Origin: a virus
Virus record (IMG/VR): IMGVR_UViG_3300027733_000034
Span: 67,533 to 131,532 of that record
Strand: one strand, 5' to 3'
DNA length: 64,000 nucleotides
How positions within the stretch are numbered: the first letter of the stretch is position 1; every line of letters starts with the position of its first letter. The translations under genes and the position numbers were made by a program. Below are positions 1,349-55,900 of the stretch, one piece after another. Below the pieces are notes generated by a model. It had not been told where the DNA came from and ran no database searches. It was given only the letters and a program-made list of their open reading frames with translations.

Positions 1349-3823
1349 TTAAACTAACCAACTAGTTATATCTGCTGGGTGTCTTGTTTGTATGTTAACG
1401 GGACCAGACCAATAGCTACTAGGATAACTGCATATCATATAAACTTTATTATATTTGTCTTTGATTAACCAACCTACAACATGATTAATACCAGTCACAG
1501 CCTGAGCATCTACCACGTTTGGTACAGGAACTCTTGCAAAATTTGTAACAGAATCTTTTGCTCCAGTCCATTGTTCTGTGGTTAAAGCGCGCCAGCCTGC
1601 CAAATATAAATAACCATCTGTTCCTATAAAAGCAGAATTTGTGGGATTACTATCTATGCCATATTTTATTAATTTGGCTGGAGTAATGCCTGCTAAAGAA
1701 GTTACTACAGTTGGAGTATTTCTCCAGGTAGTGTCTCCTAGACCCAAAGGACCATAACCATTATATCCCCAGGTGTATACTGTACCATTAGAAGTATATG
1801 CAAGACAATGAGTATAACTACCAGTTCCATAAATTGCCATATCTACAATACCAGATGTAAATGTGGCTATTTTCATGAAAAGATTTCTATTAGTATTATT
1901 ACCCACACCCAATTGACCGTAATCATTTAGTCCAACAGCATATACAGAATTGTCTGCTGTATAAACATACAAAGATTCATAACAAGAGGTGCTCTTTCTA
2001 AAAATTTTAGTAATATTATTAAATGGTGTACCTGGTAAATTGCCATTATTATTTAAACTTTTCTGAGCCACTACAAGCGTATTAGTTGTTTGGGCTGGAG
2101 AACCCGTGCCATTGCTGAACTGACCGTAATAATTTCCACCAGATGACCACAAGGTTCCATCAGTTTTAAGTACATGTAAGCAGGTGCGAGTCATTACTAC
2201 TTGTTTTACTCCACTTTCAAATCCAGTAGGAGTTTTAATATTTTGCCAGTAATCCCAAGTACCATGTCCTAATTCTCCGTAATAATTAGTACCCCATGTA
2301 TATAATTTACCACTAGAGTCTATGGCGGCTGTATTTGGCCAATCATAACTACCATGACTAGATGTTTCAAAATCTACTATAAATGATGAAATGGCTATTT
2401 TTTGAAAATAATAATTCCAATTACCTAGAGCATCTACTCCTATAAACCACAAGGTACCATCATCAAACAGCACCATAGAATGAGCTCTGGTAGTTATCAT
2501 CTTTATAACTTTGGTATTTGCAGGAAGTGTAAAGTTATAAAATCCATCAAATGGAATTTGCATAGGGGGCCATATGCTAGCATTATCATCTTTAGAAAAG
2601 AATCGATTATTGCCCCACATTATTACTCGATTGTCAGAAGTTACTACATTGGCTGTCCAGTGACTAGTGTGATTTTCGCCAAAAAATGCAACAGTTTTGG
2701 GTATACTGCTATAAGAAGTAATTTTTGTACCGTCTGCAAAGGTTATTCCACTAAGAGCACTTAAATTACTTGTAACAGTTAAAGATCCGCTAATAGTTTG
2801 TATAGAACTTTGTGGTTGATTGGTTTTTATTACATTAATTGCAGATAACTGGTTGCTGTTGTTGACTACAATGGTTTCTCCGTCGACGTTTGCTGCAACT
2901 GTAGAGCCATTTAAACAAACTCCTTGGCTAAAATTATAACCTAAACTTATTTTGTTTAAATTATTAAGTTTTATGGATGTATTATCGATGTTTGGAGTTA
3001 CAACTTTGTCTGTACTGACACTCATTCCAGTACCAAAAGTGGTTATAGAAGATATCTGACCATTTATAATTTTAATGGTGTTATTGTCTACTGCAGCTGA
3101 AATTGAGGTATATCCGGAACTAATGGTAGAATTGATGGTAAGTCCAGCTGATGGAATAAATCTAAATCGGCTAGCGGATGTCAATTCTACTAAATTAGAT
3201 ACCGGATTTATTTGAATAGAATTGTTGTCTACATTTAAATTTACACCATAGCAGATTGTTTGTGTTCCACTTGAGGGATCAAAACTAGTTGCTAAATAAG
3301 AAGATTGCAAACCAGAATTGGATGCAAAACAATAAGAGTTTCTGCTAAATGTTGGCGGGTGTCCTACCATGGCACACAAAGCATCAGTAATGGTTGCCAA
3401 GTTGACAGACATTCTTCCGTCATTGGCTATGCTTATAGTATTTGGATCTGTATAAACTTTTACTACAGTTCCATTCACCTGTAGCCCATCTGTAAAAGTA
3501 TAATTACCACCTCCACCACCTCCACCTACGCCAGCATTATTAATACTTCCAGATATAGTTAAATTGCCATGGATACAAGTGTTACCGTATATATCAGCTC
3601 CAAGAACATTTCCGCACGCCACAATTCCGGTGTAATTGCTTTTAAAAAATCCAGCAGAAGCACTGAGAGGAGCAATTGCACTTAAAGTACCGTTCAAAAC
3701 AAACGGTCCCTGGAAAGGAGCTTCTGGACTTGCTATTGGGTCGTGTCCAGCATCTGGATTATCACTGCTAGAGTAAGTGTGATGATTTTGGCGATGGTAC
3801 TTAGAATGAAAACGGTTACTCAT
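1349..3823 (-). CDS. Tail fibre/receptor-binding protein with shaft repeats and C-terminal RCC1/BLIP-II beta-propeller
   Basis: Repeats TDPNTISIA, VDNNSIQIN, VDNNTIKII, IDNTSIKLN, VDGETIVVN; RCC1 repeats LYTWGTNYYGELGHG, VYAVGLNDYGQLGVG, VYTWGYNGYGPLGLG. Confidence 0.75.
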   Translation of the reverse strand: MSNRFHSKYHRQNHHTYSSSDNPDAGHDPIASPEAPFQGPFVLNGTLSAIAPLSASAGFFKSNYTGIVACGNVLGADIYGNTCIHGNLTISGSINNAGVGGGGGGGNYTFTDGLQVNGTVVKVYTDPNTISIANDGRMSVNLATITDALCAMVGHPPTFSRNSYCFASNSGLQSSYLATSFDPSSGTQTICYGVNLNVDNNSIQINPVSNLVELTSASRFRFIPSAGLTINSTISSGYTSISAAVDNNTIKIINGQISSITTFGTGMSVSTDKVVTPNIDNTSIKLNNLNKISLGYNFSQGVCLNGSTVAANVDGETIVVNNSNQLSAINVIKTNQPQSSIQTISGSLTVTSNLSALSGITFADGTKITSYSSIPKTVAFFGENHTSHWTANVVTSDNRVIMWGNNRFFSKDDNASIWPPMQIPFDGFYNFTLPANTKVIKMITTRAHSMVLFDDGTLWFIGVDALGNWNYYFQKIAISSFIVDFETSSHGSYDWPNTAAIDSSGKLYTWGTNYYGELGHGTWDYWQNIKTPTGFESGVKQVVMTRTCLHVLKTDGTLWSSGGNYYGQFSNGTGSPAQTTNTLVVAQKSLNNNGNLPGTPFNNITKIFRKSTSCYESLYVYTADNSVYAVGLNDYGQLGVGNNTNRNLFMKIATFTSGIVDMAIYGTGSYTHCLAYTSNGTVYTWGYNGYGPLGLGDTTWRNTPTVVTSLAGITPAKLIKYGIDSNPTNSAFIGTDGYLYLAGWRALTTEQWTGAKDSVTNFARVPVPNVVDAQAVTGINHVVGWLIKDKYNKVYMICSYPSSYWSGPVNIQTRHPADITSWLV

Positions 3824-3849
3824 AACAAATGTGGGATGTAATATTTACC

Positions 3850-6800
3850 TTATTCGTCCAAGGGATTAGGTGTGCTGTTACAGCAATCAGAACTAGCGTT
3901 GTTCCAGGTTTTAGTCCATCCTTCACTAGAATCATAATTTATAGGAAAAGAAGATTCCAATTCTCGATAGGTGATGGGATTTACATTACATATTCTTATG
4001 GATGGTAGGGATAGATTGTAACAAGACATAGCATTCCAAGACCAACAAAATCCCTGTGGGCATATTACAGATACACCAGCTCCTTCTACTTTAAAATCAG
4101 GTAAGAAAAGAGGTGAAATATCTAAAAATTGTTTGATAGATAATATAGAGTCGTAAATTTTGTCTATTTCTCTATTTAAAATTTGAGGAAGATGAAATTC
4201 ATTTACACCCACAGAGACGGTGTCTTTCTCTACATCTTTGTGTAAGGATGGTTGTTCTGTAATTGATACCGGTATCTGAGCATAATAGGTAACTATTCCA
4301 ACGGAAAGTCTTTCTGTAACTTTAGAAAATTTTCCATTAAGATTATTTCTGAAAGTTTTTATATTCTGAGAAATTCTCTTCAAAGATTTATTGTAAGAAA
4401 TATCTGAAGCAAAATCGTCTTTTTTTAATAATATTTGTTCTTCAGACCACATATTTGTCGGCAAACCTTGGCCAATACGAAACAAATCTACCACATCTTG
4501 AATTTTTACAATAGCTTGTGGAATAGCCATTAATAAATTACGGTAGGAAGATTTTTTAATGGTTAGGGGATTATATGTAAGAGGAGAAGTTCCTATATAC
4601 ACTCCAAGAGCACTATATTTAAACAATAAACCACCTCTACCATTAGAAGCAATGATGTATAAAAATTCACCAGCTTCGTCCAAAGTCATTTTGGTTATAA
4701 CTGCATTTGGATAATAGATACTAATTTCTGATAAAGATTTTACATATAACGGGGAAGGAGATGAAATATCAAAAACATATAAATTATGGTTTTCAGAAAT
4801 CGTATAACACATTCCGTCAAAATGAGTGGCTAGATATTCTGGTCTATCTGTTTCAAATTTTTCTGTATAATAGGTGTGAATCCAATTTAGATCACTAGTA
4901 AATTCTTTGACACATTTATTATTATAATCCAAAACAAATACATTGTTTTCAGACAAAGATAAATCTGATGGAGCAGAAAATCTACTAGAATCATTTCGTC
5001 CACCAAATCCTCCGACATTGATAGATATATTAATGGTTTGTGATTCTATGTCTATATTTAAACTATAAAGTTTATTAGATGGTGGGTCTAATATATACAT
5101 TATTCCATTTTCATCCACTTCCATGTTAGTTGGTCTTACAAATTGATTTACAAAAGATGGAGTATTGGTGAATATTATTTCTTGTGGTTTATAGTTTTTA
5201 TTTAAAAACATTCTAACATTAAAATAATCATCTAAAACATATAGATAATCTCCAGAAGAAGAAATATCTATTATGTTATTAAAGAACTGCACAGTACTAT
5301 CTTTATAAACATTATTATTTATATAACTAAATGTAGTTGGAGACGCATAATATTTGCCACCAAAATATTTGTTATGCCAGCGAATACCAAATCCTTTTTT
5401 TGTAGCATTGCATCCAAGCCATCCATAATAAACGGTTGGAAAATCACTATTGATGGATTGAGTGCTGTCTTGAAGTTTGGTTAAATTGTCACTTAATCTT
5501 TTTAAAGAAGTGTTAAAGATATCTGCTACTCCCCATTCATTGGGTTGGATGTGAGTTTGCTCTCGAGTCCATGGCAAATCTATAATCTCCTCATTAAGAT
5601 CTCTTAAATGAGTTTGATTATATTCTGACCATTTGGATTTAATTATGATTGGTTCGGCTAAGGTGCCTATTTTAGTAGCTCCATCTTGATAGACAGCTTC
5701 ATAATCTATAAAATATGTCCCAGGCTGGGTGTATGTGTGTTCTGCTAATCCTCCTTTGTAGGAAATTACACCATCTGTGGCGTTTTCACCAAAATATGTT
5801 CTATAAAAAAGAATATTATTATCATCTACTTCCGCTGGTGAGGTATATGCAACTGATATTGGAGCTCCGGTGATGGATATAAAATTTGAAACAAAAATAG
5901 AGGGAGATACTGCGGTGGCAAATGCTGTGAATGTTCTCCATCTATTATCCCCACTTAATGGATAAATTCTTTGACTAAATACTGGATTCCATAAATCACC
6001 TCCTTGTGGCCAAACTCCGGATGAATAATTACTGAAAGTAGAGCTTGGAATTGTGAATGGAATATTAGTACTGTATAAAGATATGCTCAATCTGTTGATT
6101 TGCTCTTCTGTTAGATAACCAGGTTCATAGGGATCTCCTATTTGTAAATTAATTGTTTGAGTTCCAGTGGTTGCTGGAACTGTTACTAAATAAGAATCTG
6201 GCCAAAGTGTACTTTTAAGAGCATAGGTAGCAGTTCCTCCACTAACTGGAATTACTGGTGAGGTAGAATCCGCAGCACTTATAAATTGTGTCAAAGAAAT
6301 ATATCTCTTATAATCTAAATCTATCTTAGTTGAATCTAGAGTATAAGAAAAAAGAACACCTGTATTAAAGTTTACTAGTGTTGGATTTTTTTCAAAAGAA
6401 TTTACACCAGTTGTGGATGGTAAAACAGAACTTGCAGTAAGGTTAAAATTATACATCCTTAATTCTCCACCCACACTAGACGGTTTAACATACTGAAAAG
6501 GTGTAGTCTGCGGATACATCTGTCCATATGCTGTTAAAGATATAGTTAGACCGTCATTTGAGAGAAACTCTGGAGTATACGGTAGAGATATTAGAGTTGC
6601 TGAAGGGGATTTTAGTGTGGATAAAAAGGTTTTTTGAGATCCAATACTATAGTCGTACTCTGTCATTATCTTGTTGGCACTGACATAAAAATTTTGACTA
6701 CTAGATTTCTTATTATTATATGCCGTAGGAGCATTTGCTAATGTATAATTGCTAGCACTTAGCAAAACTGCCCTTGTTCCACTCCAACAATACTCTGGGT

Positions 6801-9666
6801 ATGTAATAAATTTTAATGGAGTATAAAATTCAGATGAATTTGGGGTATAAATCGTAGCAGTTGTTGCTATATTATGATATGCTGGAATTTTAAAATCTAC
6901 ATTTTCTATTAAATTGGGATCTTGCCATCCTACCGCATAGGCACTTAAGGCACATAATGTAACTATGGTAGTATTAATATTTGCAGAAGTAATTGCAAAA
7001 TTTAAAGTGGGATGTTTGCCGTAAAGTGATGAAATTAATAGAGTGTGTCCAGTGTTGTCAGAAACACTCCATACATAAGTAGTGCTTAAAGATACGTCAG
7101 ATGTGCTATAAGAAGACAGAGAAAATACATTTGTGTTGTCATTTGGTCTGGTCAGAATGTATTGATTTAAAGTGGTGTCTAATATGGTTGCAGATATAGA
7201 GTTATATCCGGTATATGATATAGTAAAATCTGAATTCAAAAGATCCCTGGACGGAAATTCATCTACATAAAAACTATAATTGGTTTTGAATAAATTATTT
7301 TGAGAATGACACATTAAAACCATTTCCACTTCATTAACATCTGGTAATTGTGTTGAGTATCCCGGAGTCACCTCTACAAAAATAGAACTAAGTTGAGTTG
7401 CTGGTAGTATGGTTCCGTAACTATATGGAGTGAGAGAACCGCCGCTTCCGTAGTAATATACACTAATTGGTGTTAACTCTGGTTGTAATATGGATGCATA
7501 TTTCCAAGACCAGGACAAAGAGGTGCCAGTCGGAAACTGATACACTTTGCCGTGATAAGGTACTAACGCAGATAAACCTATGGTTCTAATTTTATTTAAA
7601 TTGTTAAAAATTTTATTAGGTCCTATAAGAAATCTTTTTTCATCAAACGGATTTTGAATGGCAGAGTTGGATTGTAAGGTGGTTACTTCATTATACTTCT
7701 GAGAAGATAGTTGAATGGTAATGGTATTCAATCCAAAGTCACTAAATCTTACATAAGATGTTTGCGCAGAAAATAAAATTGGTACATTAGCAGATAAGGA
7801 TTTAATAATGTTTCCACTGAGGTCTAAAGAACTTAATGTAGCACCTAAACCAGATGGTGAATAACTCCAAGTAATATAAGAATTTCTTAAATCTCTAGTA
7901 GGCCATTGAGGTGCTGCTGTCAACATATTACAAGATACCTCAAAAGTGGCGCCAGTTTGATTGATTGGATTTAAAAATATAGGAGATCCGGTATAACTTT
8001 GAGTTTGGTTTTTTGCTATAGTTATTACTGTAGGCAATTTAGAAGTAATCCAACCACCAGCAGAACTTAATGTAGATCTCAATACTAAAGTAGCCTCTCC
8101 ATAGGGAGTGTGTGGATAATCTATGGTTAAGTCTACTCCAGATAATACCGGAACCCATGGAGAAAATTTTAAATTATATGGGTCTTTGTTTGGTCCGTAA
8201 TATACATTAATAGCACTTAGGTCTAATAAAAAAGAATCAGATAATAATTCATATTTTATATATTCTTTTACATTATTATTTTTAAGATCATATTTTAGCA
8301 ATCCGTAATCTGAACTTATAAAAGAAGATAAAACAACGGTTTGAGAATTTGCAGAAACTGCTGATGTAATTAAGCTAAAAGTTAAATAACATGAATCTGT
8401 TAAATTATTAAATCCAAGTTTTGGAGCTGATAAAGATAACTGATAAGAATAGTAATGAGGAGGATACTTAGTAATTGTTTGTATACTCTTGTTAGCAACT
8501 GTCGGTGAAATTGGAACATTTAAATCATAACCAAGAGAATTAATATAAAAGGCACTAAGAGTAGAATTTACAGTTTCTAAAGAATATAATAAAATTGGAC
8601 TATCGGATATAAAATCTAATCCAAGGAAAGATCCGGGTCTTCCGGTTACATCACTATATATTGTTTTATTAACATAATGATACCGGCTATAATAATTAAC
8701 TGTAGAGGAAGACAGATCTACTACTGCACTTAATATGCAATTGCTTGCATCTCCAAGATTAGAGATAGTGTCACCCAAGGCTCTAAATTGTAGTAATTGA
8801 AATGCCTGACGATTGCTAGATAAACTTTGATTATTAAGAATATAAGAACTTTTAAAAGAATGAGGAAGTTCAGGGTGGGTATCTATACGATCTTGGCCAA
8901 GAGTCAAAACACCGTCATACGCAGAATATGTTACAGAATATGTTACACACGGAGAATCTGGTCTTATCTTCGACTTAATAGTGGTATCTTCCAAAGCCCG
9001 AACAGAATTATACGGGTTGTTGATAGGTGAAAAAATAATGACGGGATAGTTAATTCGTTGTCTGCAAGAACTTAAGCTAAAAACATAAGAAGTATCGGAT
9101 GTAGTTGGAAGAGGACTGAATGTGGGTCCGTTGTTTAAAAAATCATAATGTTGGCTATATGCCAATGCCTCTGAAGCAGAGGATTTAAAAAAATAGGTAG
9201 TGTGATCTGTTACTACTGCAGAAGTGGTTAGGGTCCAAGAACTAATATTTTTAACTAAAGAAACTGGTTTGAGAAATAATCTAGAAGGATAAAGAGAATA
9301 GGCATATTCTCTTTTAAAAGCAGCTTCTGCTCCCGGGTTAATATTTACGTAAAAATAATTAAACTGATGACCTATATTATATTTTGTGCGGTGACTAGAT
9401 AAATCCCATACAAAGGATGCTCCTGTGTCTGTATTAATTATATATTGACTAGTTTGATTGGAAAAAAAGTAAGATGCTTTGTCGTAATAAACTGTATTAA
9501 CATTTTCTACTTCGTTGATAGGCACGTTGCTGAGCCTGAGTAAATTTTCAGCTGGAAGTTCTCCAAGTCGTGGTTCTATAAGTTGAGAACTAGGAGAAAT
9601 TCTGTAGGTTTCTGTGGGCCAGGTACCTAATTTTTCAATTAAAAAAGCGGAGTCAGCAGCTGCCAT
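3850..9666 (-). CDS. Giant (1938 aa) virion/baseplate protein with PKD-like and NHL-repeat beta-propeller regions
   Basis: Ser/Thr-rich beta-type sequence; TYFGE...HTYTQPGTYFI (PKD-like); FVRPTNMEVDENG.MYILD and FSAPSDLSL.ENNVFVLDYNN (NHL repeats); downstream of gp6. Confidence 0.65.
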   Translation of the reverse strand: MAAADSAFLIEKLGTWPTETYRISPSSQLIEPRLGELPAENLLRLSNVPINEVENVNTVYYDKASYFFSNQTSQYIINTDTGASFVWDLSSHRTKYNIGHQFNYFYVNINPGAEAAFKREYAYSLYPSRLFLKPVSLVKNISSWTLTTSAVVTDHTTYFFKSSASEALAYSQHYDFLNNGPTFSPLPTTSDTSYVFSLSSCRQRINYPVIIFSPINNPYNSVRALEDTTIKSKIRPDSPCVTYSVTYSAYDGVLTLGQDRIDTHPELPHSFKSSYILNNQSLSSNRQAFQLLQFRALGDTISNLGDASNCILSAVVDLSSSTVNYYSRYHYVNKTIYSDVTGRPGSFLGLDFISDSPILLYSLETVNSTLSAFYINSLGYDLNVPISPTVANKSIQTITKYPPHYYSYQLSLSAPKLGFNNLTDSCYLTFSLITSAVSANSQTVVLSSFISSDYGLLKYDLKNNNVKEYIKYELLSDSFLLDLSAINVYYGPNKDPYNLKFSPWVPVLSGVDLTIDYPHTPYGEATLVLRSTLSSAGGWITSKLPTVITIAKNQTQSYTGSPIFLNPINQTGATFEVSCNMLTAAPQWPTRDLRNSYITWSYSPSGLGATLSSLDLSGNIIKSLSANVPILFSAQTSYVRFSDFGLNTITIQLSSQKYNEVTTLQSNSAIQNPFDEKRFLIGPNKIFNNLNKIRTIGLSALVPYHGKVYQFPTGTSLSWSWKYASILQPELTPISVYYYGSGGSLTPYSYGTILPATQLSSIFVEVTPGYSTQLPDVNEVEMVLMCHSQNNLFKTNYSFYVDEFPSRDLLNSDFTISYTGYNSISATILDTTLNQYILTRPNDNTNVFSLSSYSTSDVSLSTTYVWSVSDNTGHTLLISSLYGKHPTLNFAITSANINTTIVTLCALSAYAVGWQDPNLIENVDFKIPAYHNIATTATIYTPNSSEFYTPLKFITYPEYCWSGTRAVLLSASNYTLANAPTAYNNKKSSSQNFYVSANKIMTEYDYSIGSQKTFLSTLKSPSATLISLPYTPEFLSNDGLTISLTAYGQMYPQTTPFQYVKPSSVGGELRMYNFNLTASSVLPSTTGVNSFEKNPTLVNFNTGVLFSYTLDSTKIDLDYKRYISLTQFISAADSTSPVIPVSGGTATYALKSTLWPDSYLVTVPATTGTQTINLQIGDPYEPGYLTEEQINRLSISLYSTNIPFTIPSSTFSNYSSGVWPQGGDLWNPVFSQRIYPLSGDNRWRTFTAFATAVSPSIFVSNFISITGAPISVAYTSPAEVDDNNILFYRTYFGENATDGVISYKGGLAEHTYTQPGTYFIDYEAVYQDGATKIGTLAEPIIIKSKWSEYNQTHLRDLNEEIIDLPWTREQTHIQPNEWGVADIFNTSLKRLSDNLTKLQDSTQSINSDFPTVYYGWLGCNATKKGFGIRWHNKYFGGKYYASPTTFSYINNNVYKDSTVQFFNNIIDISSSGDYLYVLDDYFNVRMFLNKNYKPQEIIFTNTPSFVNQFVRPTNMEVDENGIMYILDPPSNKLYSLNIDIESQTINISINVGGFGGRNDSSRFSAPSDLSLSENNVFVLDYNNKCVKEFTSDLNWIHTYYTEKFETDRPEYLATHFDGMCYTISENHNLYVFDISSPSPLYVKSLSEISIYYPNAVITKMTLDEAGEFLYIIASNGRGGLLFKYSALGVYIGTSPLTYNPLTIKKSSYRNLLMAIPQAIVKIQDVVDLFRIGQGLPTNMWSEEQILLKKDDFASDISYNKSLKRISQNIKTFRNNLNGKFSKVTERLSVGIVTYYAQIPVSITEQPSLHKDVEKDTVSVGVNEFHLPQILNREIDKIYDSILSIKQFLDISPLFLPDFKVEGAGVSVICPQGFCWSWNAMSCYNLSLPSIRICNVNPITYRELESSFPINYDSSEGWTKTWNNASSDCCNSTPNPLDE

Positions 9667-9689
9667 GGCAATAATACTTAGAATGAAAT

Positions 9690-12600
9690 TTAATAGTTCA
9701 ACAAATTTAATCCCTTGTATAATTCATAGGTTAATAGAGTCTCGTATATTCCCTCATTACCCTGCCATTCTTCCTTGGAAGAAGTGTTGTAATTAATGGT
9801 GGTAAATGGATTTTCCCAATCTATTATTCCCTCAAGAGTTTTTCCTTCACTTAAGGTAATATATTTGTAAAATTCATAATATTCAGTCCAATTTTGCGGC
9901 AAATTAAGATATGATGCTAACATATTGGTTGAATAAAGTGTAAAATTATTAATATTTCCAGTATAAATGAGTTGGTATTCATCTATACTTTTATTTTTTA
10001 ATATAACAGGTTCACCGGCAGAAATTCCCATAGAAGAGGTGTATATTGGACCTTTGTTGAACGCTTCTATTTGCTGCCCAGGAATACTTTTGAAAAAATA
10101 CTTTCTCGAATCTTTAGCACCTCGAAGTCTACTTTGATTAATGCTAATTAAATTCATTAATCTTTTTATAGACTCAGGATAGGTAAACAAAAAATCATCT
10201 GTGTTTAAATCTACCATTTGAGATAAACTATATAGCTGATCTATATTGCAAGTATCTATGTCTACATTATTACTGGTAAAATTGGCAATTTTTTCATATA
10301 TGTCCGTGCCCAAATCACCGGCTTTATTTCCTAAAATACTAGCAAAAAAATCATCAAATAAAACAGGGCTGTCCTGTAAAATTGGCATAAAGGCTAATTT
10401 TTTCATATAAGAAGCCATATCAAAGTCTTCATTTATCTTGGCTAATCCATAGGCATAAGAATTATCTGCATAAAAATCTAATGGTCTAGATATTCCCGAA
10501 ACGGAAAAATATTTTGTAGATTTTTCTATAGAAGAAAGATACTTTAACCCAAATTTGTTCGTCCATCTAAATCCAGACCAATCTCCATTAGCCTGTAAAG
10601 ATTTATTACCTCTGCCATATGCTAATGCATTTTTATTATTTGCATCTAAATAATGTACAAAACCTTGAGGATTGATGACAAAGCTATCCACAATAGACAC
10701 ACTGTCGTTGTCTAAAAGATATACGCAATTTTCTATAGAATTAATAACATAAATTTTTCCAGCCAAATCTGAACATATGCCCTCTAATACATGGGTTTCT
10801 GCGTTTAAATATGAATTAGCTGTAAACAATTCAACAGTTTGAGTCGAATATAATTCGTTACCGGATATATCATTTGTTACTGTTATCTTGGATACAGATC
10901 GATAATCATGAGTAAACCATAGGTTTTGGTTATTGTCTATAGTTAAATTATTAATGTTTTGATAAGGTCCGAATCGAGAAAGTCCGCCAGGGGCACTAGA
11001 CAATAGGGTTAAAGTAGAATTACGCCTTTCTATATAACCTAAATTGTCGCCTTGATTAAACGGTAAAGATATCCAAACATTTCGATTGTTATCACAAACA
11101 ATCTCTGAAGGAGTGGATAAAGCTGGTAAAGATATAGCATATAATATAGAAAAATCATCTGCTTTATATTGAACAATAAAACTGCTCAAAGGATTTGAAT
11201 AGCAAATAAAAATATTGTCATTTATATCAATATCTAAAAATGTCGGTTCTATGAATATTTCATCAGTCAAAAAACTGGTTAATGTTGGAAAGTAACTTTC
11301 TGCACACAACCATGGAACAAAACTGCTTAAACTGCTGGAAGAAGAAAAAACAAATGAAGATGGGTTTATGGCTGTTAAGAAATTACCATAACTATCTAGT
11401 TTTATAGATGTCACTGAGTCACTTAACGTTAACCATATATTTTGTTGGCTATCTAAACTCATTGCTATAGGATATGTGGTTGTTCCGGTTATTCCTAAAT
11501 TTGTGGTAACTAAATCATTTATATCTATAGCACTTAATATATCTCCTTTAGAATCTATTCTATATAAATAACTAAGTTCAGAGTCTAACATCCAAGCTTG
11601 GTAGTATGGATATGGTAACGCAGCAATGCTGTATATTCCATGAAAACCACTCAGTCCATTAGTTACCACTGGCATTTCAAAGGATTGTTGAACAATCGGA
11701 GGTACTATCAAGGATGATAATAAATTGACTCTACTGTATTGAGCGACAGTTACAGAGCCGTTTTCTGGGTTAGAAAGCCATAATAGAGGATTAAAAAAGT
11801 TTGCAGTCAATGGTGGCATTGCTGCGGATAAATGAGCTGTAATGCAAACACCTAAAGTATTAACGTTTTCTGCATCAAATTGTCCTTTATAATATCCAGG
11901 AGTTTTATAGTTAGAGTAATCTGTCCAGTTAAAATACGGTTCTGGGTCAAATGTAGCACTCAAACCAATCAGACCCACTTCTATAGGAAAATTGTCTTCG
12001 TTTTTTAATGGAAAACTATGAACAAAATAAGAAGAATCTGAAGGAAATTTAAAATTATTTTCTGATAACCACGGATCGTCTAAAGTTATCGGAGAATATG
12101 TAGCATTGACTATGATAGGTACCTTGGATGTAGACCAACGAGGATTTGCATGTTCTCTGATTCCGTTTTCGGTTATTTTTAAAATATCTGGAGTTTTCCA
12201 AGTCTGAACATACGGGCAAACCGCAACAGCTTTGCTATTAGCATAGCTAGGTAAAAAATTTAAAGATTCTGTTTGTAGTGTATAATCTTTAGAATTGTCT
12301 GTTAACAATGTAGCCAGTATGGTTGTATAATCTGAAGAAGAAGATGCAACATCCATATTATACAAATCATCTGAGAAATAAAACTCAGCATATCCACTGA
12401 CTCCAGCGACATAAGATCCGGTAGGATTTAATTTACCCGCAGAATTAGAGTGTAATATGGTATCTATAGTTTTTATAGTTTGGATTTGATTACCATTTAA
12501 ATCATAAAAACGAGTCTCGGGTCTGAGAAAATTCCATTTAGTACCAGAACCTGGATTACTAGAGCGAGAAAATAAAGTTGATAATTGTATAAAATGATCT

Positions 12601-12965
12601 TTAGTGTCGGGAGAAGTAATAACCAATTTAAACGGATAAGCATTTAAAAATCCTGCGTGAGTGGGCGGCGGTACTCTTTCAAAATATATAGATTCATTTA
12701 GAGAGAGGGTAATCGTAATAGTTTGAATACTTTGAGATTCTACAGCATCACCACTAGGACCATATGCTACTAATTTAACCTGAAAAGAGCCAGCAGAAGA
12801 ATATGTATGGGTTGGATATAATAAAGAACTGGAAGATCCGTCTCCAAAATACCAAGTAACCTTTGTATCTTTGGTAATCGGATATATGGTAGGAAAAAAA
12901 GAAATTGGAGTTATTCCTACATACCCGGTAGAAGAACTTACAGAAAAATTTACGAAAGATATCAT
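9690..12965 (-). CDS. Baseplate-associated protein: N-terminal PKD domain, central beta-propeller
   Basis: TWYFGDGSSS...PTHTYSSAGSFQVKL (PKD); repeated D..NN.W/F blades (LDSQQNIWL, CDNNRNVWI, IDNNQNLWF); directly follows gp6. Confidence 0.7.
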   Translation of the reverse strand: MISFVNFSVSSSTGYVGITPISFFPTIYPITKDTKVTWYFGDGSSSSLLYPTHTYSSAGSFQVKLVAYGPSGDAVESQSIQTITITLSLNESIYFERVPPPTHAGFLNAYPFKLVITSPDTKDHFIQLSTLFSRSSNPGSGTKWNFLRPETRFYDLNGNQIQTIKTIDTILHSNSAGKLNPTGSYVAGVSGYAEFYFSDDLYNMDVASSSSDYTTILATLLTDNSKDYTLQTESLNFLPSYANSKAVAVCPYVQTWKTPDILKITENGIREHANPRWSTSKVPIIVNATYSPITLDDPWLSENNFKFPSDSSYFVHSFPLKNEDNFPIEVGLIGLSATFDPEPYFNWTDYSNYKTPGYYKGQFDAENVNTLGVCITAHLSAAMPPLTANFFNPLLWLSNPENGSVTVAQYSRVNLLSSLIVPPIVQQSFEMPVVTNGLSGFHGIYSIAALPYPYYQAWMLDSELSYLYRIDSKGDILSAIDINDLVTTNLGITGTTTYPIAMSLDSQQNIWLTLSDSVTSIKLDSYGNFLTAINPSSFVFSSSSSLSSFVPWLCAESYFPTLTSFLTDEIFIEPTFLDIDINDNIFICYSNPLSSFIVQYKADDFSILYAISLPALSTPSEIVCDNNRNVWISLPFNQGDNLGYIERRNSTLTLLSSAPGGLSRFGPYQNINNLTIDNNQNLWFTHDYRSVSKITVTNDISGNELYSTQTVELFTANSYLNAETHVLEGICSDLAGKIYVINSIENCVYLLDNDSVSIVDSFVINPQGFVHYLDANNKNALAYGRGNKSLQANGDWSGFRWTNKFGLKYLSSIEKSTKYFSVSGISRPLDFYADNSYAYGLAKINEDFDMASYMKKLAFMPILQDSPVLFDDFFASILGNKAGDLGTDIYEKIANFTSNNVDIDTCNIDQLYSLSQMVDLNTDDFLFTYPESIKRLMNLISINQSRLRGAKDSRKYFFKSIPGQQIEAFNKGPIYTSSMGISAGEPVILKNKSIDEYQLIYTGNINNFTLYSTNMLASYLNLPQNWTEYYEFYKYITLSEGKTLEGIIDWENPFTTINYNTSSKEEWQGNEGIYETLLTYELYKGLNLLNY

Positions 12966-12967
12966 AA

Positions 12968-14737
12968 TTAAAAGTCTGCTATTTTTACAGAATAAGAAAG
13001 ATCCACTACTTCAATGCGATCGGCTAAATAAGCAACATTATTGAGCAATGGATATTTAAAATCATCTAAATATATTGTTTGAGTATAAACATTTATATCA
13101 TTTGTAGGATATTTGGAATTCCATACTAAAAATGATAATTGTCTGGAAACTGTGTCGGTATCTTTACGATAACTATCTATATAGTCTACTCCATCTATTC
13201 CAATAATATACGTAGTCAATTGATGAGTATTAATATCATATCCGAGAACTGCTGCGGCAAAATAGTTTTTAATTAAATTAACCACATCAAATTTAATAGA
13301 AGCACTAGACCTACGTGTATTTGGATTTTTGTGTATTCTTAAAGTTGTCTGAAGAATATCTGTAGTAGTAACTGGTTTGTATAAATCTTTTAAATAAAAA
13401 TCAAACAACATATATTCAGGATCCGTAGGAACAATTTGGATTCCAAGACCTTTGTATCTATTAACTTCTTTTAAAATTATTTCTTTTTGAGCAGATAATA
13501 AATATTTTTGAGAATTTTTTGGAATACTGTATATGTAAACATTGTTAAAATTGCACGAATTGGCAAATTTAACTTGATTCAACAAAATTTGGGTTTCTAA
13601 TTGAGGTTTGCTTAAACCTATAGAATATAAATATTTTAAATGAGTATTTAAATAGGTGTCATTATCAATAGCTTTTGAATCTTTAATAATATTAGAAAAA
13701 TTATTATTAACAAAATAATTGTAATCATCTGTTGTTATTAATCTTTGTTGACTTCTAAAAGATTTTGGGGCCTTTTTTCTTATAGATTCAACTGATTCTT
13801 CATCACTATATTGAGAGGAAGGAAATAAATTGTCTAAAGACAGGAAATTAAGTTTATCAAAAGTAAAATAGGTGCCAAAAATAGATTTAGTTTGATTAAA
13901 AATTGTACTAAATTGTCTAGAGTTGAATGGAACAAAAGTATTATTTCTTAAAGCATGTGGTCCAATGGTGTTACTACCTGGGTTTATTTTTAAAAAATAA
14001 ATAGCCACTTGATCTCCAGCATCTAATTTTTGACCGTTAATATCATCACCAAATAAAATTTCATACCTTTTATTAGCATTATATCTTACTTCATACACTT
14101 TAGCAGTGGCAGAATATTGAGTTAAATTTTCCACTCTGGTCCATTTTTTCCAAGTTTGAGTGTCTTTTAATACATAAACATCTATGGTAAGGTGATCAAT
14201 AAAAACATCATCTCCCGTTGCTATATACACCACTTCATTTTCAATTCCCAAAGCAGAATGGATATCATATTCTTGTATAGAACCTTCTCTCAGCATATAA
14301 GTGTGATTTACGTCTGCAATGGTTTCTGTTCCAGCTGTTTGTTTTGTAAAACCTATATCTTGAGTCAAGGTAAAAATAGTACCACCAACTGATGTGTAAC
14401 TATAGCGGGGTATTATATAAGAATTTGCAGAGAGATCACTAGAAGCGGTGATAGTAAAGGGAACTGATTGAGAAGTTTTGCCTATCGGATTGTAGTTTAA
14501 AATTTTAACAATTCGATTCATGTTTTCATATATTTGAGCTTCGGAAAACATACTCTCAGAAGAGGTTTTGCTGTTGTAAAATTGTAAACTACCAAAAGCC
14601 ATACTGATAATATCAATTATGGCAGAAATATTAGATCCTTGAAAATTTTGATCAGTAAAAACTTGACTATTGTTGAGTTTATCAACAATTTTATTGCGCA
14701 ATTCTAATGCATCAAAAGCTAAAAATTGATTATCCAT
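12968..14737 (-). CDS. Baseplate wedge subunit (T4 gp6-like)
   Basis: FTDQNFQGSNISAIID, YEILFGDDINGQK, ESVESIRKKAP..F.SQQR.IT..DY motifs; next to gp25. Confidence 0.88.
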   Translation of the reverse strand: MDNQFLAFDALELRNKIVDKLNNSQVFTDQNFQGSNISAIIDIISMAFGSLQFYNSKTSSESMFSEAQIYENMNRIVKILNYNPIGKTSQSVPFTITASSDLSANSYIIPRYSYTSVGGTIFTLTQDIGFTKQTAGTETIADVNHTYMLREGSIQEYDIHSALGIENEVVYIATGDDVFIDHLTIDVYVLKDTQTWKKWTRVENLTQYSATAKVYEVRYNANKRYEILFGDDINGQKLDAGDQVAIYFLKINPGSNTIGPHALRNNTFVPFNSRQFSTIFNQTKSIFGTYFTFDKLNFLSLDNLFPSSQYSDEESVESIRKKAPKSFRSQQRLITTDDYNYFVNNNFSNIIKDSKAIDNDTYLNTHLKYLYSIGLSKPQLETQILLNQVKFANSCNFNNVYIYSIPKNSQKYLLSAQKEIILKEVNRYKGLGIQIVPTDPEYMLFDFYLKDLYKPVTTTDILQTTLRIHKNPNTRRSSASIKFDVVNLIKNYFAAAVLGYDINTHQLTTYIIGIDGVDYIDSYRKDTDTVSRQLSFLVWNSKYPTNDINVYTQTIYLDDFKYPLLNNVAYLADRIEVVDLSYSVKIADF

Positions 14738-30501: not shown

Positions 30502-30894
30502 TTATTTTTTGTTTAAGTGTTCCAACGCTGAATTGTATATATGCAATTCTCTTACCGAGATCTCCATATTATTAGCCAATGTTTCTATATTATCAACCTC
30601 ATCTACTTTATTTGTTTGAGTAGTTTTTTTAATATAATTTATTTTTTTACTAATACGGGGCAATAATGTTCTATAAATTTTACCAGCTAACAGTCCTTCT
30701 TTGGCTATTAATGTTTTATATGTCCAACGATTAAAAGTGACATTTACTATTTGAGCCAATGAAGGATCTATCATTGATAACCATCTATTGGTTATAAAAA
30801 TAGATGGAATATCATTTTCATCTGGTTGTACTGAATTCTTCTTAAGAATCCAATTTAAAAAAGGAAATAAATTGTCTTTGTAATTGGGTTTCAT
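30502..30894 (-). CDS. Possible clamp loader small subunit (gp62-like)
   Basis: FITNRWLSM....IVN, LLPR..K..YIKK, LANNMEIS.RE resemble gp62. Confidence 0.5.
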   Translation of the reverse strand: MKPNYKDNLFPFLNWILKKNSVQPDENDIPSIFITNRWLSMIDPSLAQIVNVTFNRWTYKTLIAKEGLLAGKIYRTLLPRISKKINYIKKTTQTNKVDEVDNIETLANNMEISVRELHIYNSALEHLNKK

Positions 30895-31484: not shown

Positions 31485-31500
31485 AGGTTAAATTTAACTG

Positions 31501-32825: not shown

Positions 32826-32826
32826 T

Positions 32827-33564: not shown

Positions 33565-33576
33565 GTGATAAATAAT

Positions 33577-43037: not shown

Positions 43038-44091
43038 AAAAAAAATTAAATCAAGAAATATAGGTTTCTTCTCTGATATCCATATGGGTCTGGGGAGAGA
43101 TAGTGTTATCTGGCAGGAAAATATTTTAAAATTTGCTGAATGGGCTAAAAGTATCTATGAAAAAAGAGATATTACAGAAATTATAATTCCAGGTGACATC
43201 TTTCACAATAGAAGTGAAATTTCAGTTAACACATTAGCAACTGCTGCAGCTTTTTTTCAAATTTTTAAAGATTTTAATTTATATATTTCCACTGGAAATC
43301 ATGATTGCCATTTTAAAAATTCATCGGATATAAATTCCATTTCAATTCTTAAGGGATGGACCAACATTACTTTGGTTGATGAGGAACCTGTAGTATTTGA
43401 CACTCCAGTAAATAAAACTTTATCCTTAATACCTTGGGGAATAAATGTAGAAGATATACCAGAAACAGATATTTGTGTTGGACACTTTGAAATTAATTCA
43501 TTTAAAATGAATGTTCAAAAAATTTGTGATCACGGGGTAAATTCTTCAGATCTCTTAGACAGATCTCCATATATTATATCTGGCCATTTTCATCACAAAG
43601 ATCATCGAAAATATGAAAGAGGTAATGTATTGTATCTTGGCAGTCCTTACCAACAAAATTTTGCCGACTCTGGGTCTGAAAGAGGAATTTATATTTTCGA
43701 TTTAAAAACCAATGAATTTGAATTTATAGTTAATAATATCTCACCACAACATTGGAAAGTTTCTTTACAAAAAATCTTGGACAAAACTTTAACCAGTCAA
43801 CATTTAAAAAATATTATTCCTAATAATATGATTAGTTTGGTAATTGATACCAAACATGCTTCTGAGAAAATTTCTTTATTAGCATCTAAATTACAAAGTC
43901 TCAAACCTAAATTTTTTAGAATTGATTATCAAACTGTGGACAATAATTTATCTTCCACAGAAGGTGAACAAAATTATAATAGTATAGATATTCCGAAAAG
44001 TTTACAAGATTTTGTAAACACTTTAGAAATCTCAAATAAAGAAGACACTATTAGTTATCTTTCTGATCTTTACACCAAATTAACAGCATGA
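43027..44091 (+). CDS. Recombination nuclease gp47 (Mre11/SbcD-like)
   Basis: SDIH.G, GDIFH, GNHD, GHFE, SGHFH, YLGSPYQ. Confidence 0.93.
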   Translation: MSIRKKIKSRNIGFFSDIHMGLGRDSVIWQENILKFAEWAKSIYEKRDITEIIIPGDIFHNRSEISVNTLATAAAFFQIFKDFNLYISTGNHDCHFKNSSDINSISILKGWTNITLVDEEPVVFDTPVNKTLSLIPWGINVEDIPETDICVGHFEINSFKMNVQKICDHGVNSSDLLDRSPYIISGHFHHKDHRKYERGNVLYLGSPYQQNFADSGSERGIYIFDLKTNEFEFIVNNISPQHWKVSLQKILDKTLTSQHLKNIIPNNMISLVIDTKHASEKISLLASKLQSLKPKFFRIDYQTVDNNLSSTEGEQNYNSIDIPKSLQDFVNTLEISNKEDTISYLSDLYTKLTA

Positions 44092-44843
44092 ACGAAAAAA
44101 TTTCAATTGGAATTATTGACATATATTCCCAAGAAACTCTCAATAAATGTCTAGAAGCAATTCCCAATTCTTTAAAAGAAAATATTGTAGTTATTTCCAA
44201 TACAGATAATAAAATTCCTAATAGTATTAAAAGTATTAAATTTGGTAGAGCCGTTTCCCTGGCTTCTATGAGAAATATTTTTCTTACATCAGAAAGGAGT
44301 AAAGGTGGTAAAAATTATTTTTTTATTATCAATTCAAATTTAATTTGTATTAAAGAAGATTTTTTTGAACATGTAATTAAAACTGCTTCAGTCTTTGGTA
44401 CCTGGGTTATGTTTGGTCCTAACAAGAAAGTTATATCGTTGGAGGAAGACAATCATAAAATTTCTTTAGATCTTGGTTATACAATGAATCCAGATTTTAT
44501 TTTTCTACATTCCGGAATCATTAAAAATGTAGGATTTTTTAATGAACAAATACCTAGTAATGAATCTTTAGATGTTTTAGATTATATTATCAGATGTCAT
44601 AAACTTGGAGTATGTACCCCAATGCCACACGCCCCAAGTGTTAATTATGGTTTATATGTTATGGAAGAAGAGGTTTTAAAAATTAAATTTTCAGATGAAC
44701 AAAAAATAACCAATATGAGTTATGGAATGTTTTATCATTTACATAAATTTATTCCAGATCCTAAGGAATTTCCTATTAAGAGCCAAGATGAACTTTTTAG
44801 TATTGTAGAAACTCTTCAACAAAAATATTCAAAACCTTTATAA
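44088..44843 (+). CDS. Degenerate GT2-like protein (DxD replaced by NSN)
   Basis: Aligns by eye with the next ORF: YFFIINSN vs YFFLMEDD, VGFFNE vs VGLMDE. Confidence 0.55.
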   Translation: MNEKISIGIIDIYSQETLNKCLEAIPNSLKENIVVISNTDNKIPNSIKSIKFGRAVSLASMRNIFLTSERSKGGKNYFFIINSNLICIKEDFFEHVIKTASVFGTWVMFGPNKKVISLEEDNHKISLDLGYTMNPDFIFLHSGIIKNVGFFNEQIPSNESLDVLDYIIRCHKLGVCTPMPHAPSVNYGLYVMEEEVLKIKFSDEQKITNMSYGMFYHLHKFIPDPKEFPIKSQDELFSIVETLQQKYSKPL

Positions 44844-45634
44844 TGAAAAAAATTGGATTAGGTATAACAACTTATAAAAGACCAGATTATTTTTTAAAAG
44901 TAATTAATAGTATACCTTTAAAAGATTCTGGTATAGAGGTGGTAGTGGTAAATGATGGTACTCCATATGAGGACATTCATCATGTTTTTAATCATATTCA
45001 ACATCCAGTTAACAAAGGTGTGGGTATATCAAAAAATAGTGCCTTAAAATTCTTATTAGAACAAAAATGTGATTACTTCTTTTTGATGGAAGATGATATA
45101 ATCATTAAAGATCCTGCAGTATTTGAACAGTATATCAAAATGCATGTAGATACCGGTATACATCATTTTAATTATAGTCAGCATGGTTTAATGAACAAGT
45201 ATCCAGGTTCCGATACCCCTTCACCAAAAACAGTTATTCAATATAAAAATAGTAAAGTAGCTCTGTATCCTCACTGTGTAGGAGCTTTTAGTTTTTATAC
45301 TAAAGAGTGTTTGGAAAAAGTAGGATTAATGGACGAAAAATTTTACAACGCCACAGAACATTTAGAGCATACCTACAGAATCATTCAAAATAAAATGCAT
45401 CCTTCATTCTGGTGGTTTGCAGACCTACCAAATGCTAATGATTTTCTGACGGACATACCGTGGACTCAAGAATCTAGTACTATATCATCTCATTATAATC
45501 ATCATAACACTGTGATAAAATCTCTTCAATATTTTTATGAAAAACATAAAGTAGATTTATTACAAATTCCACAAAGTAATCTAGAAGAAATTAAATTAAA
45601 TCTCAAAGAAATTTATAAATTATGGAAAATCTAA
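44843..45634 (+). CDS. GT2 glycosyltransferase
   Basis: ITTYKRP, VVVNDG, N.GV..SKN, FLMEDD, VGLMDEKF. Confidence 0.88.
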   Translation: MKKIGLGITTYKRPDYFLKVINSIPLKDSGIEVVVVNDGTPYEDIHHVFNHIQHPVNKGVGISKNSALKFLLEQKCDYFFLMEDDIIIKDPAVFEQYIKMHVDTGIHHFNYSQHGLMNKYPGSDTPSPKTVIQYKNSKVALYPHCVGAFSFYTKECLEKVGLMDEKFYNATEHLEHTYRIIQNKMHPSFWWFADLPNANDFLTDIPWTQESSTISSHYNHHNTVIKSLQYFYEKHKVDLLQIPQSNLEEIKLNLKEIYKLWKI

Positions 45635-49281: not shown

Positions 49282-49282
49282 T

Positions 49283-50832: not shown

Positions 50833-50864
50833 ATAATATTTTTATAACTATAAAATAATAAATT

Positions 50865-55896: not shown

Positions 55897-55900
55897 TATT

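What the first reader, a model, noticed from the sequence alone, without database searches (positions are those of the whole stretch)
1349..14737. L-S-A/L-S-S (and L-C-A) tripeptide pervades virion proteins: candidate glycosylation sequon
Seen: counted by eye, the first ~1000 aa of the 1938-aa protein hold 8 LSA and 10 LSS, while its C-terminal ~900 aa hold none. A rough composition-based expectation is about one LSA. The fibre has TLSAIAPLSA, QLSAI and NLSALSG, all in its N-terminal half. The 1091-aa protein has GLSAT, HLSAA, ILSAI, LLSS and GLSG; gp6 has DLSAN and LLSAQ; gp15 has YLSAS and KLSSV. The 856-aa polymerase has no LSA or LSS. LCA appears in the same context three times (ALCAM, TLCALSA, WLCAE), hinting that the side-chain nucleophile matters. 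Known: some phages (e.g. mycobacteriophages) glycosylate virion proteins with their own GTs. Inference: these motifs are O-/S-glycosylation sites for the phage GT island, giving a glycan-coated baseplate and tail. A sequon-directed phage virion glycosylation system is not one I know as described.
Basis: partly seen in the sequence, partly recalled or inferred. Interest (0 to 1): 0.85.

Follow-up and report, generated by a model that had tools for sequence, protein, structure and literature searches.

The report
Leu-Ser-small motif in phage tail proteins
The outer tail proteins of this uncultured lake phage and its whole clade carry the tripeptide Leu-Ser-(Ala/Ser/Gly) several times too often; it is either a lineage-specific building block of their beta-rich folds or, almost as likely, a mark for the phage's own sugar-adding enzymes, and nothing yet shows a modification.

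Summary
The counts are right and far above chance. LSA occurs 17 times against 2.1 expected in the four proteins. It is the most enriched of 8,000 tripeptides and survives a dipeptide-aware control. Codons vary, so selection acts on the protein. The motif is not virion-wide: head, sheath, neck and replication proteins are at expectation, and the gp6 and gp15 copies look like chance.

In the 1,938-aa protein the sites lie in beta-strands of a confident model of tandem Ig-like domains, mostly at columns kept in 23 homologues. In related fibres LSA heads 10-, 18- and 49-residue repeats.

The enrichment is clade-specific: 8 of 8 scanned freshwater T4-like relatives show it; T4, a cyanophage and a pelagiphage do not. 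The same clade always carries soluble GT-A glycosyltransferase paralogues, here at the start of the gp47/gp46 island. I found no relative without them, so the link cannot be tested.

I rate a structural micro-motif at 0.45 and a glycosylation acceptor at 0.35. No chemistry is shown. Earlier notes of this scan (read, not re-checked) report similar motifs on other T4-like phage DNA.

The parts
3850..9666 (-). 1,938-aa baseplate or tail protein. It has no Pfam or PHROG family. All 18 LS[AS] copies lie in its N-terminal half.
   Evidence: 23 homologues found
6517..9666 (-). Residues 1-1050 of the 1,938-aa protein: a tandem array of Ig-like beta-sandwich domains that holds the motif copies.
   Evidence: AlphaFold2 model with mean pLDDT 84.6 and 49% strand. 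Foldseek matches to contactin, complement C3/C5 MG arrays, alpha-2-macroglobulin and S-layer Ig arrays. 11 of 18 LS[AS] lie wholly in strands.
8725..8733 (-). LSA at residues 312-314, one of the best-kept sites: LSA in 11 of 24 aligned sequences, with Leu nearly invariant.
8062..8070 (-). LSS at residues 533-535. Leu is invariant; LS[ST] occurs in 19 of 24 sequences and LCS in 2.
7702..7710 (-). LSS at residues 653-655. The third residue (Ser655) is invariant; the middle Ser is replaced in 6 of 24 sequences.
7384..7392 (-). LSS at residues 759-761. The middle Ser760 is invariant.
6940..6957 (-). LCALSA at residues 904-909. At the first site homologues have LSA in 12 and LCA in 3 of 24 sequences.
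9690..12965 (-). 1,091-aa gp7-position protein with an N-terminal PKD domain; LS[AS] 8 against 2.0 expected. Its LSA at residues 477-479 (11529-11537) is LCS or LCA in 12 of 23 homologues.
1349..3823 (-). 824-aa tail fibre: conserved N-terminal adaptor, then a C-terminal RCC1 beta-propeller; 4 LSA against 0.31 expected.
3659..3685 (-). LSAIAPLSA at fibre residues 47-55. L47, S48, A49, L53 and S54 are invariant in the 5 aligned fibres.
12968..14737 (-). gp6-like baseplate wedge protein. Its two LSA copies are each kept in only 2 of 21 homologues and are probably chance.
44088..46353 (+). Conserved head of the glycosyltransferase island: a 251-aa GT-A-like protein, a 263-aa GT2 with an invariant EDD motif, and a 243-aa partner.
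   Evidence: Pfam PF00535 at 25.4 bits against a cut-off of 23.3. Homologues in G001-G003, in G004, G005 and G007, in G020-G023 and in G009-G011 and G014.
46343..54034 (+). Variable part of the island: CgeB-like, exostosin-like and GT4 transferases and two Methyltransf_24 proteins. All are soluble. Most have no homologue in the three complete relatives.

Best explanation
Leu-Ser-(Ala/Ser/Gly) is a lineage-specific structural micro-motif of the beta-rich outer tail proteins of this clade of freshwater T4-like phages.

Proposed arrangement (inferred, not shown):
- Leu points into the hydrophobic core.
- The small third residue packs beside it.
- The serine between them lies on the surface of a strand, or caps its end.

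In the 1,938-aa and 1,091-aa proteins the motif recurs about once per Ig-like domain. In the fibres of relatives it heads short solenoid-type repeats. On this reading it spread by descent, internal duplication and the exchange of fibre modules, and it is kept because it is needed for folding or assembly, without any chemical modification.

Shown here: the enrichment, the position of the sites in strands, the conservation by alignment column, and membership in larger repeat consensuses. Inferred: the packing role and the absence of a modification.
For: 1. In the AlphaFold2 model of residues 1-1050 (mean pLDDT 84.6), 11 of 18 LS[AS] lie wholly inside beta-strands and the other 7 at strand or helix ends. 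The fold is a chain of Ig-like sandwiches.
2. The enrichment comes from conserved alignment columns. Of 67 columns with LS[AS] in any of 24 homologues, 9 are shared by 8-17 sequences. Sites private to one lineage number 0-4 per protein, which is about the chance level.
3. Across homologues the flanking positions are kept better than the serine: hydrophobic 87% (L 59, I 15, V 7, F 6), small 75% (S 34, A 26, T 10, G 5), Ser 49%. Which residue is invariant differs from site to site (L533, S655, S760).
4. In the 18-residue fibre repeat of relatives (50 units), LSA is only one of several near-invariant positions: S2 98%, A3 94%, G5 90%, S14 96%, G9 78%.
5. The most exposed and abundant virion proteins (head, sheath, neck) are not enriched: 4 against 3.0.
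6. The GT genes sit among replication genes and share no detectable similarity with the Che8 virion glycosyltransferases.
Against: 1. The specificity is odd for a packing motif. In ORFs of at least 600 aa from 8 clade genomes, LSA is 2.5-5.5 times expectation. ISA, VSA and LTA are mostly 1-2 times, apart from G000 (VSA 16/5.4, about 3 times) and LTA about 2 times in G000 and G011. Beta-strands usually favour Ile, Val and Thr (general knowledge, not tested here).
2. The motif recurs in unrelated settings: Ig-like strands with no detectable internal sequence repeat (best off-diagonal hhalign probability 0.2%), and repeats of about 10, 18, 35 and 49 residues.
3. T4, cyanophage S-ShM2 and pelagiphage HTVC008M tail proteins show no such enrichment. 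A universal structural rule is therefore not enough, and descent within the clade must be invoked.
The substitution spectrum suggests that the serine is exposed.
Confidence: 0.45

Rival explanations
1. Leu-Ser-(Ala/Ser/Gly) is the acceptor motif of a phage-encoded cytoplasmic O-glycosylation (occasionally S-glycosylation) system.

Proposed mechanism (inferred):
- The conserved soluble GT-A paralogues at the head of the gp47/gp46 island start a glycan on the serine of tail and fibre proteins before or during folding.
- The variable transferases and methyltransferases of the island extend and cap that glycan.
- The result is a strain-specific sugar coat on the baseplate periphery and fibres.
For: 1. 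The tripeptide is specific: Leu far above Ile or Val, Ser far above Thr.
2. It occurs in several unrelated structural settings.
3. It is clade-specific. LSA is 2.5-5.5 times expectation in the large ORFs of 8 of 8 clade genomes, against 1.1-1.9 times in 3 outgroups.
4. GT2 homologues were found in 10 of 12 relatives chosen without regard to GTs. The 2 without a hit are fragments that also lack gp46. No homologue was found in S-ShM2 or HTVC008M.
5. Four further phages chosen for having the GT2 gene, with no match to the N-terminal array of the 1,938-aa protein, are again enriched: 141/64.5, 106/57.7, 139/56.5 and 72/48.7 genome-wide.
6. The island has a conserved head and a variable tail. All 13 of its ORFs lack membrane-spanning segments.
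7. The serine is probably exposed. Ser and Cys alternate at several sites.
8. Precedents exist. TibC heptosylates serines, not threonines, of a beta-helical adhesin (passages of PMC4358343). Mycobacteriophage glycosyltransferases modify capsid and tail-tube proteins (passages of PMC11600133 and PMC12363180).
Against: 1. No chemistry is shown.
2. The association is a single phylogenetic event, with no GT-less member of the clade to compare.
3. The serine is the least conserved of the three positions.
4. Private-site turnover is at chance level rather than keeping motif density constant.
5. Major head, sheath and neck proteins are not enriched.
6. Small, mostly non-structural ORFs are not depleted of the motif (0.9-1.65 times expectation).
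7. The GT genes lie in the replication module. In 59 of 80 other contigs the GT2 gene is found without gp47 or gp46, in most of them with a homologue of an AAA_28 gene nearby, which fits a DNA- or host-directed role equally well.
8. The GT2 protein is not similar to Che8 gp108, gp109 or gp110 (E=4.4, 0.20, 3.4).
Confidence: 0.35
2. The motif is read by another clade-specific trans-acting factor, such as a fibre or baseplate assembly chaperone or an enzyme that makes a different serine/cysteine modification. The glycosyltransferase island serves DNA or host-envelope modification instead.
For: The same arguments for a trans-acting reader apply: tripeptide specificity, many structural settings and restriction to one clade. 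The usual reading of glycosyltransferases in aquatic T4-like phages is host O-chain or DNA modification (passages of PMC7029224). The window also carries a queC - amidotransferase - GT - DUF366 set.
Against: No candidate reader was identified. No conserved flanking residue suggests a known modification motif.
Confidence: 0.12
3. The enrichment is a by-product of composition or of chance, picked out after the fact.
For: LSS alone is not significant after correction. The gp6 and gp15 copies are at chance level and not conserved.
Against: LSA is the top tripeptide of 8,000 in an unbiased scan (Bonferroni 1e-6). It survives a dipeptide model. It is reproduced in all 23 homologues and in 7 other clade genomes.
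Confidence: 0.03

Closest known systems
Mycobacteriophage virion O-glycosylation (Che8, Corndog, Myrna; Freeman et al. 2023). The paper itself is not held; I know it only from passages in PMC11600133 and PMC12363180.
   Same: Phage-encoded glycosyltransferases with O-methyltransferases; the proposed targets are virion proteins.
   Different: There the capsid and tail-tube subunits are modified, and the citing passages describe no sequon. Here the head proteins, sheath and neck are not enriched and the motif is in baseplate and fibre proteins. The GT2 protein here is not similar to Che8 gp108-110 and only weakly to Myrna gp234 (27% identity over 68% of the query, E=9e-11). No modification is shown here.
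Autotransporter heptosyltransferases TibC/Aah acting on TibA/AIDA-I (PMC4358343; passages read)
   Same: A soluble cytoplasmic enzyme glycosylates serines, not threonines, in repeats of a beta-helical surface protein. This is the nearest mechanistic analogue to a Ser-specific motif heading beta-solenoid fibre repeats.
   Different: No heptosyltransferase (GT9) family was found among the 13 island ORFs. The enzymes here are GT-A and GT-B types of other families, and the substrates are phage tail proteins.
Glycosyltransferase-rich variable regions of aquatic T4-like phages (host recognition cluster of pelagimyophages, PMC7029224; passages read)
   Same: Uncultured T4-like phages with many glycosyltransferases in a hypervariable region.
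   Different: That paper places them beside tail-fibre genes and proposes host O-chain modification. Here the island splits gp47 from gp46 in the replication module. HTVC008M, the cultured pelagimyophage, shows no LS[AS] enrichment (33/31.1).
Tandem Ig-like / macroglobulin-type beta-sandwich arrays (structural matches to contactin 2, complement C3/C5, alpha-2-macroglobulin and archaeal S-layers)
   Same: The same overall architecture of the N-terminal 1,050 residues. An inward hydrophobic - outward polar - inward small pattern in a strand is ordinary for such domains (the pattern is recalled general knowledge, not tested here).
   Different: I know of no Leu-Ser-small signature for these folds. 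Large structural proteins of S-ShM2 and HTVC008M show no enrichment; their folds were not examined here.
Earlier notes of this scan on other T4-like phage DNA (e1-5765128, e1-5878741, e1-6027607, e1-5916656, e1-6056388)
   Same: They describe Leu/hydrophobic-Ser-Ala/Gly motifs enriched in outer virion proteins next to glycosyltransferase islands, with the same two competing readings.
   Different: They concern other genomes. One (e1-5878741) reports the motif equally common in relatives without the island, which could not be tested here because no GT-less relative was found. These are unchecked AI notes.

Membership tests
Phage virion glycosylation system of the Che8 type | Phage-encoded glycosyltransferases homologous to Che8 gp108-110 or Corndog gp38 | tested here: not met
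   BLASTP of the conserved GT2 protein against Che8 gp110, gp109 and gp108 gave E=3.4, 0.20 and 4.4. Corndog was not compared.
Phage virion glycosylation system of the Che8 type | Glycan demonstrably attached to virion proteins | not testable with these tools
   This needs mass spectrometry or glycan staining. The phage is uncultured.
Phage virion glycosylation system of the Che8 type | Targets are the capsid and tail-tube subunits | tested here: not met
   The major capsid protein has 0 LS[AS]. Head, sheath and neck ORFs together have 4 against 3.0 expected.
Autotransporter heptosyltransferase (TibC/Aah) system | Heptosyltransferase of the GT9 type | tested here: not met
   Pfam scans covering the 13 island ORFs list GT2, Glyco_trans_1_2, exostosin-like, GT1/GT4 and Methyltransf_24, and no GT9.
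Autotransporter heptosyltransferase (TibC/Aah) system | Serine-specific acceptors in beta-solenoid repeats | tested here: inconclusive
   LSA is far more enriched than LTA, and LSA heads 18-residue repeats in related fibres. The AlphaFold2 model of such a fibre was poor (pLDDT 53.5), and no modification is known.
Bacteroidota general O-glycosylation sequon D-(S/T)-(A/I/L/V/M/T) (motif recalled from memory) | Asp directly before the acceptor Ser or Thr | tested here: not met
   The residue before Ser is Leu in the motif and hydrophobic in 87% of homologous positions.
Glycosyltransferase family 2 (GT-A fold) | Match to PF00535 above its cut-off, and a DxD-type acidic motif | tested here: met
   25.4 bits against a cut-off of 23.3. 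E83, D84 and D85 are invariant in 7 aligned paralogues and orthologues. The best PDB profile match is GalT1 5hea at E=3.7e-5, covering only the N-terminal part.
T4-type baseplate wedge module | gp25 and gp6 homologues next to large wedge and fibre genes | tested here: met
   GPW_gp25 at 33.9 bits. phrog_219 (baseplate wedge subunit) at E=4.9e-46; Gp6-like_1st at 21.1 bits, below its cut-off of 27.
Tandem Ig-like beta-sandwich array | Repeated all-beta sandwich domains with structural matches to known arrays | tested here: met
   Mean pLDDT 84.6 and 49% strand. Foldseek E-values of 1e-12 to 1e-8 to contactin, C3/C5, alpha-2-macroglobulin and S-layers, with low TM-scores as expected for a flexible chain.

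The most novel reading that the evidence does not exclude
A large clade of freshwater T4-like phages glycosylates its own baseplate and fibre proteins at a three-residue sequon, Leu-Ser-(Ala/Gly/Ser), occasionally with Cys as the acceptor. Conserved soluble GT-A enzymes would start the glycan, and a fast-changing set of further transferases and methyltransferases would diversify it. This would be a programmable sugar coat on the host-recognition apparatus.
Probability: 0.35. Interest if true: 0.85.

Novelty: new variant of a known kind. Interest (0 to 1): 0.6.

Why it matters
If the motif is a glycosylation site, this would be the first sequon-directed glycosylation of a tailed phage outside the actinophages, to my knowledge and within the two searches I ran. 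It would sit on the parts that touch the host. That would give a function to the many orphan glycosyltransferases of aquatic T4-like phages, which are usually assigned to host O-antigen or DNA modification (PMC7029224). It would also add a new layer to host range and to escape from host defences or grazers.

If the motif is structural, it is still a clean clade-wide signature. It marks the outer tail proteins of these uncultured phages and can help annotate proteins that have no family. Either way the signal is real, it recurs in this scan, and a co-expression experiment could test it.

Tried and rejected
DNA-level repeat: rejected. The Leu, Ser and Ala codons differ between copies.

Internal sequence repeats as the source of the motif in the 1,938-aa protein: a self HMM-HMM comparison found none (best off-diagonal probability 0.2%).

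A generic property of T4-type tail proteins: rejected. T4 shows 4 against 4.7; S-ShM2 and HTVC008M are at expectation.

Co-occurrence test with GT-less relatives: not possible. Every record in which the region could be seen has the GT2 gene. The Pfam-based look for GT1 and GT2 in five records was superseded by direct homology searches.

Function of the GT2 protein from solved structures: only generic GT-A matches.

T4 late-promoter box TATAAATA as a hint to timing: 9 matches against 15 expected, and none in the island. This is uninformative.

dCMP hydroxymethylase / thymidylate synthase family in the phage's own record, as a hint to sugar-modified DNA: no match. The record is only 61% complete.

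Fold of the 18-residue fibre repeat: AlphaFold2 gave an all-beta but unreliable model (pLDDT 53.5), so I ran no fold search on it.

Burial of the serines: not computable, because the structure tool returns no coordinates. I used only the substitution spectrum.

Profile search of the 1.84-billion-protein library: the job failed and I did not repeat it.

Complex prediction, the sequencing-run tools and the protein atlas were not used. Supplementary files of papers were not consulted.

Literature: two full-text searches for a phage tail-fibre glycosylation sequon (listings only) showed no paper describing one.

Full report
What the window is. The finding covers a minus-strand run of tail genes:
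- a gp25-like protein (14730-15260);
- a gp6-like wedge protein (12968-14737);
- a 1,091-aa protein with an N-terminal PKD domain (9690-12965);
- a 1,938-aa protein with no family (3850-9666);
- an 824-aa fibre ending in an RCC1 propeller (1349-3823).
The major capsid protein is only about 34% identical to those of cyanophages. No record of the cultured-phage collection matches the 1,938-aa protein.

The observation.
- In an unbiased scan of all 8,000 tripeptides over the four proteins, LSA is the most enriched: 17 against 2.12, Bonferroni 1e-6. LSS is 15 against 5.0.
- With expectations built from each protein's dipeptides, LSA is still 17 against 5.9 (p=1.4e-4); LSS becomes marginal at 15 against 9.5.
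- In the first 1,000 residues of the large protein, none of 20,000 shuffles reached the observed 18 LS[AS] (mean 2.7, maximum 10).
- The motif is cohesive. Of 25 Leu-Ser pairs there, 18 are followed by Ser or Ala. Of 13 L-x-A triplets, 8 have Ser in the middle.
- Codons vary between copies, so selection acts on the protein.
- The title overstates the spread. Head, sheath and neck ORFs hold 4 against 3.0, and replication and GT-module ORFs 5 against 4.8. The gp6 copies are not conserved.

Where the motif sits.
- Twenty-three homologues of the 1,938-aa protein (25-92% identity) all show the enrichment in their N-terminal 1,050 residues and almost none beyond.
- Of 67 alignment columns that hold LS[AS] in any sequence, 9 are shared by 8-17 sequences. 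Lineage-private sites number 0-4 per protein, about chance.
- An AlphaFold2 model of residues 1-1050 is confident (mean pLDDT 84.6) and nearly all-beta. Foldseek matches chains of Ig-like or macroglobulin domains.
- Eleven of 18 motif copies lie wholly inside strands and the rest at strand ends, about one well-kept copy per 100 residues.
- A self HMM-HMM comparison finds no sequence repeat between the domains.
- Across homologues the first position is hydrophobic in 87%, the third small in 75%, and the middle one Ser in 49%. The middle Ser is otherwise replaced by N, T, Y, K, D or Q, which suggests a solvent-facing residue.
- Ser and Cys alternate at some sites: residue 477 of the 1,091-aa protein is LCS or LCA in 12 of 23 homologues, and residue 904 of the large protein is LSA in 12 and LCA in 3.

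The motif in relatives' fibres.
- Fibres of related contigs share the first 60 residues with the window's fibre, including the invariant LSA-x-AP-LSA.
- They then carry tandem 18-residue repeats that begin with LSA. In 50 units S2 is 98%, A3 94%, G5 90% and S14 96%.
- Other tail proteins of relatives carry LSA or LSS at the head of about 10-, about 35- and 49-residue repeats, or in beta-roll-like Asn/Gly-rich repeats.
- A model of one 18-residue-repeat fibre was all-beta but unreliable (pLDDT 53.5).

Clade specificity.
- In ORFs of at least 600 aa, LSA is 24/6.2, 36/10.7, 20/8.1 and 18/6.7 in the window's genome and three complete relatives. It is 42/8.6, 25/9.1, 46/8.4 and 21/6.2 in four more distant T4-like phages with no match to the N-terminal array of the 1,938-aa protein.
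- The controls are 9/8.0 in cyanophage S-ShM2, 7/5.5 in pelagiphage HTVC008M and 5/2.6 in T4.
- LSG behaves like LSA. LTA, ISA and VSA stay mostly at 1-2 times expectation (about 3 times for VSA in G000).

The glycosyltransferases.
- Thirteen soluble ORFs (no membrane-like segment in any of the 13) split gp47 from gp46. They include GT2, CgeB-like, exostosin-like and GT4 enzymes and two methyltransferases.
- The three complete relatives also have 9-12 kb between gp47 and gp46. Only its first genes, GT-A paralogues with an invariant EDD motif, are shared; the rest is mostly unrelated.
- A GT2 homologue is present in 10 of 12 relatives chosen through the tail protein or the capsid protein. The other two are fragments that also lack gp46. 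It is absent from S-ShM2 and HTVC008M.
- In 59 of 80 other contigs the GT2 gene is found without gp47 or gp46, in most of them with a homologue of an AAA_28 gene nearby.
- It is not similar to Che8 gp108-110 and only weakly to Myrna gp234. Solved structures give only generic GT-A matches.

Weighing the two main readings.
- For a structural motif: strand location, column conservation, a serine less conserved than its neighbours, membership in larger repeat consensuses, no enrichment on head or sheath, and GT genes placed in the replication module.
- For a reader enzyme: the sharp preference for Leu and Ser, recurrence in unrelated structural settings, restriction to one clade that also owns clade-specific soluble GT-A genes, a probably exposed serine, and Ser/Cys exchange.
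- Precedents: serine-only glycosylation of beta-helical repeats by TibC (PMC4358343, passages), and virion glycosylation by mycobacteriophage enzymes (known only through citing papers).
- The association between motif and GT genes is one evolutionary event and cannot be counted as replicated.
- My estimates are 0.45 for the structural motif, 0.35 for the glycosylation acceptor, 0.12 for another trans-acting reader and 0.03 for chance.

Novelty. Two full-text searches (listings only) showed no paper describing a glycosylation sequon on phage tail fibres. The field's usual reading of such glycosyltransferases is host O-chain or DNA modification (PMC7029224, passages). Earlier notes of this scan describe similar motifs on other T4-like phage DNA with the same unresolved alternatives. 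They are unchecked and add no independent support.

Noticed in passing
window 44088-54034; relatives G001 about 193-206 kb, G002 about 96-107 kb, G003 about 142-152 kb: The gp47/gp46 island has a conserved head of two to three tandem GT-A paralogues. The rest is mostly unrelated between the three complete relatives: 3 of the later ORFs have a homologue in G002 and 1 in G001.
   Followed up: partly
viral contigs L101-L180: In 59 of 80 contigs with a homologue of the GT2 gene, neither gp47 nor gp46 is in the fetched flanks. Most of these hold a homologue of window 36093-36731 (AAA_28), and many one of 55883-56653 (weak Fer4_12 match).
   Followed up: partly
window 3646-3823 (fibre residues 1-60) and L008, L011, L016, L020: The His-rich first 60 residues of the fibre are nearly invariant, while the rest of the fibre differs completely: an RCC1 propeller here and 18-residue repeats elsewhere. 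This looks like a fixed baseplate adaptor with exchangeable distal modules.
   Followed up: partly
whole record G000 (144 ORFs), not located within the window: Genome-wide, the tripeptides VCA (12/1.5), AMS (16/3.0), MSS (18/4.6), VAM (12/2.2) and GGG (49/20) have smaller p-values than LSA. Their location and meaning were not examined.
   Followed up: no
window 1349-14737, LSA codons: Ser is encoded by AGT in 10 of 17 LSA copies, against 24% of all Ser codons in these genes (binomial p=0.003). This may be a codon-pair preference.
   Followed up: no
G009:C1:174124-178116: A 1,330-aa protein carries at least 14 copies of a 49-residue repeat, each with an invariant LSA followed by P-x-LSG.
   Followed up: no
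window 30894-33636: QueC, a glutamine amidotransferase-like protein, a Glyco_tranf_2_5 protein and DUF366 lie in a row. Another note of the scan (e1-6144901) already flags this set.
   Followed up: no
window, both strands: The T4 late-promoter box TATAAATA occurs 9 times against about 15 expected and is not placed before the tail genes or the island.
   Followed up: no
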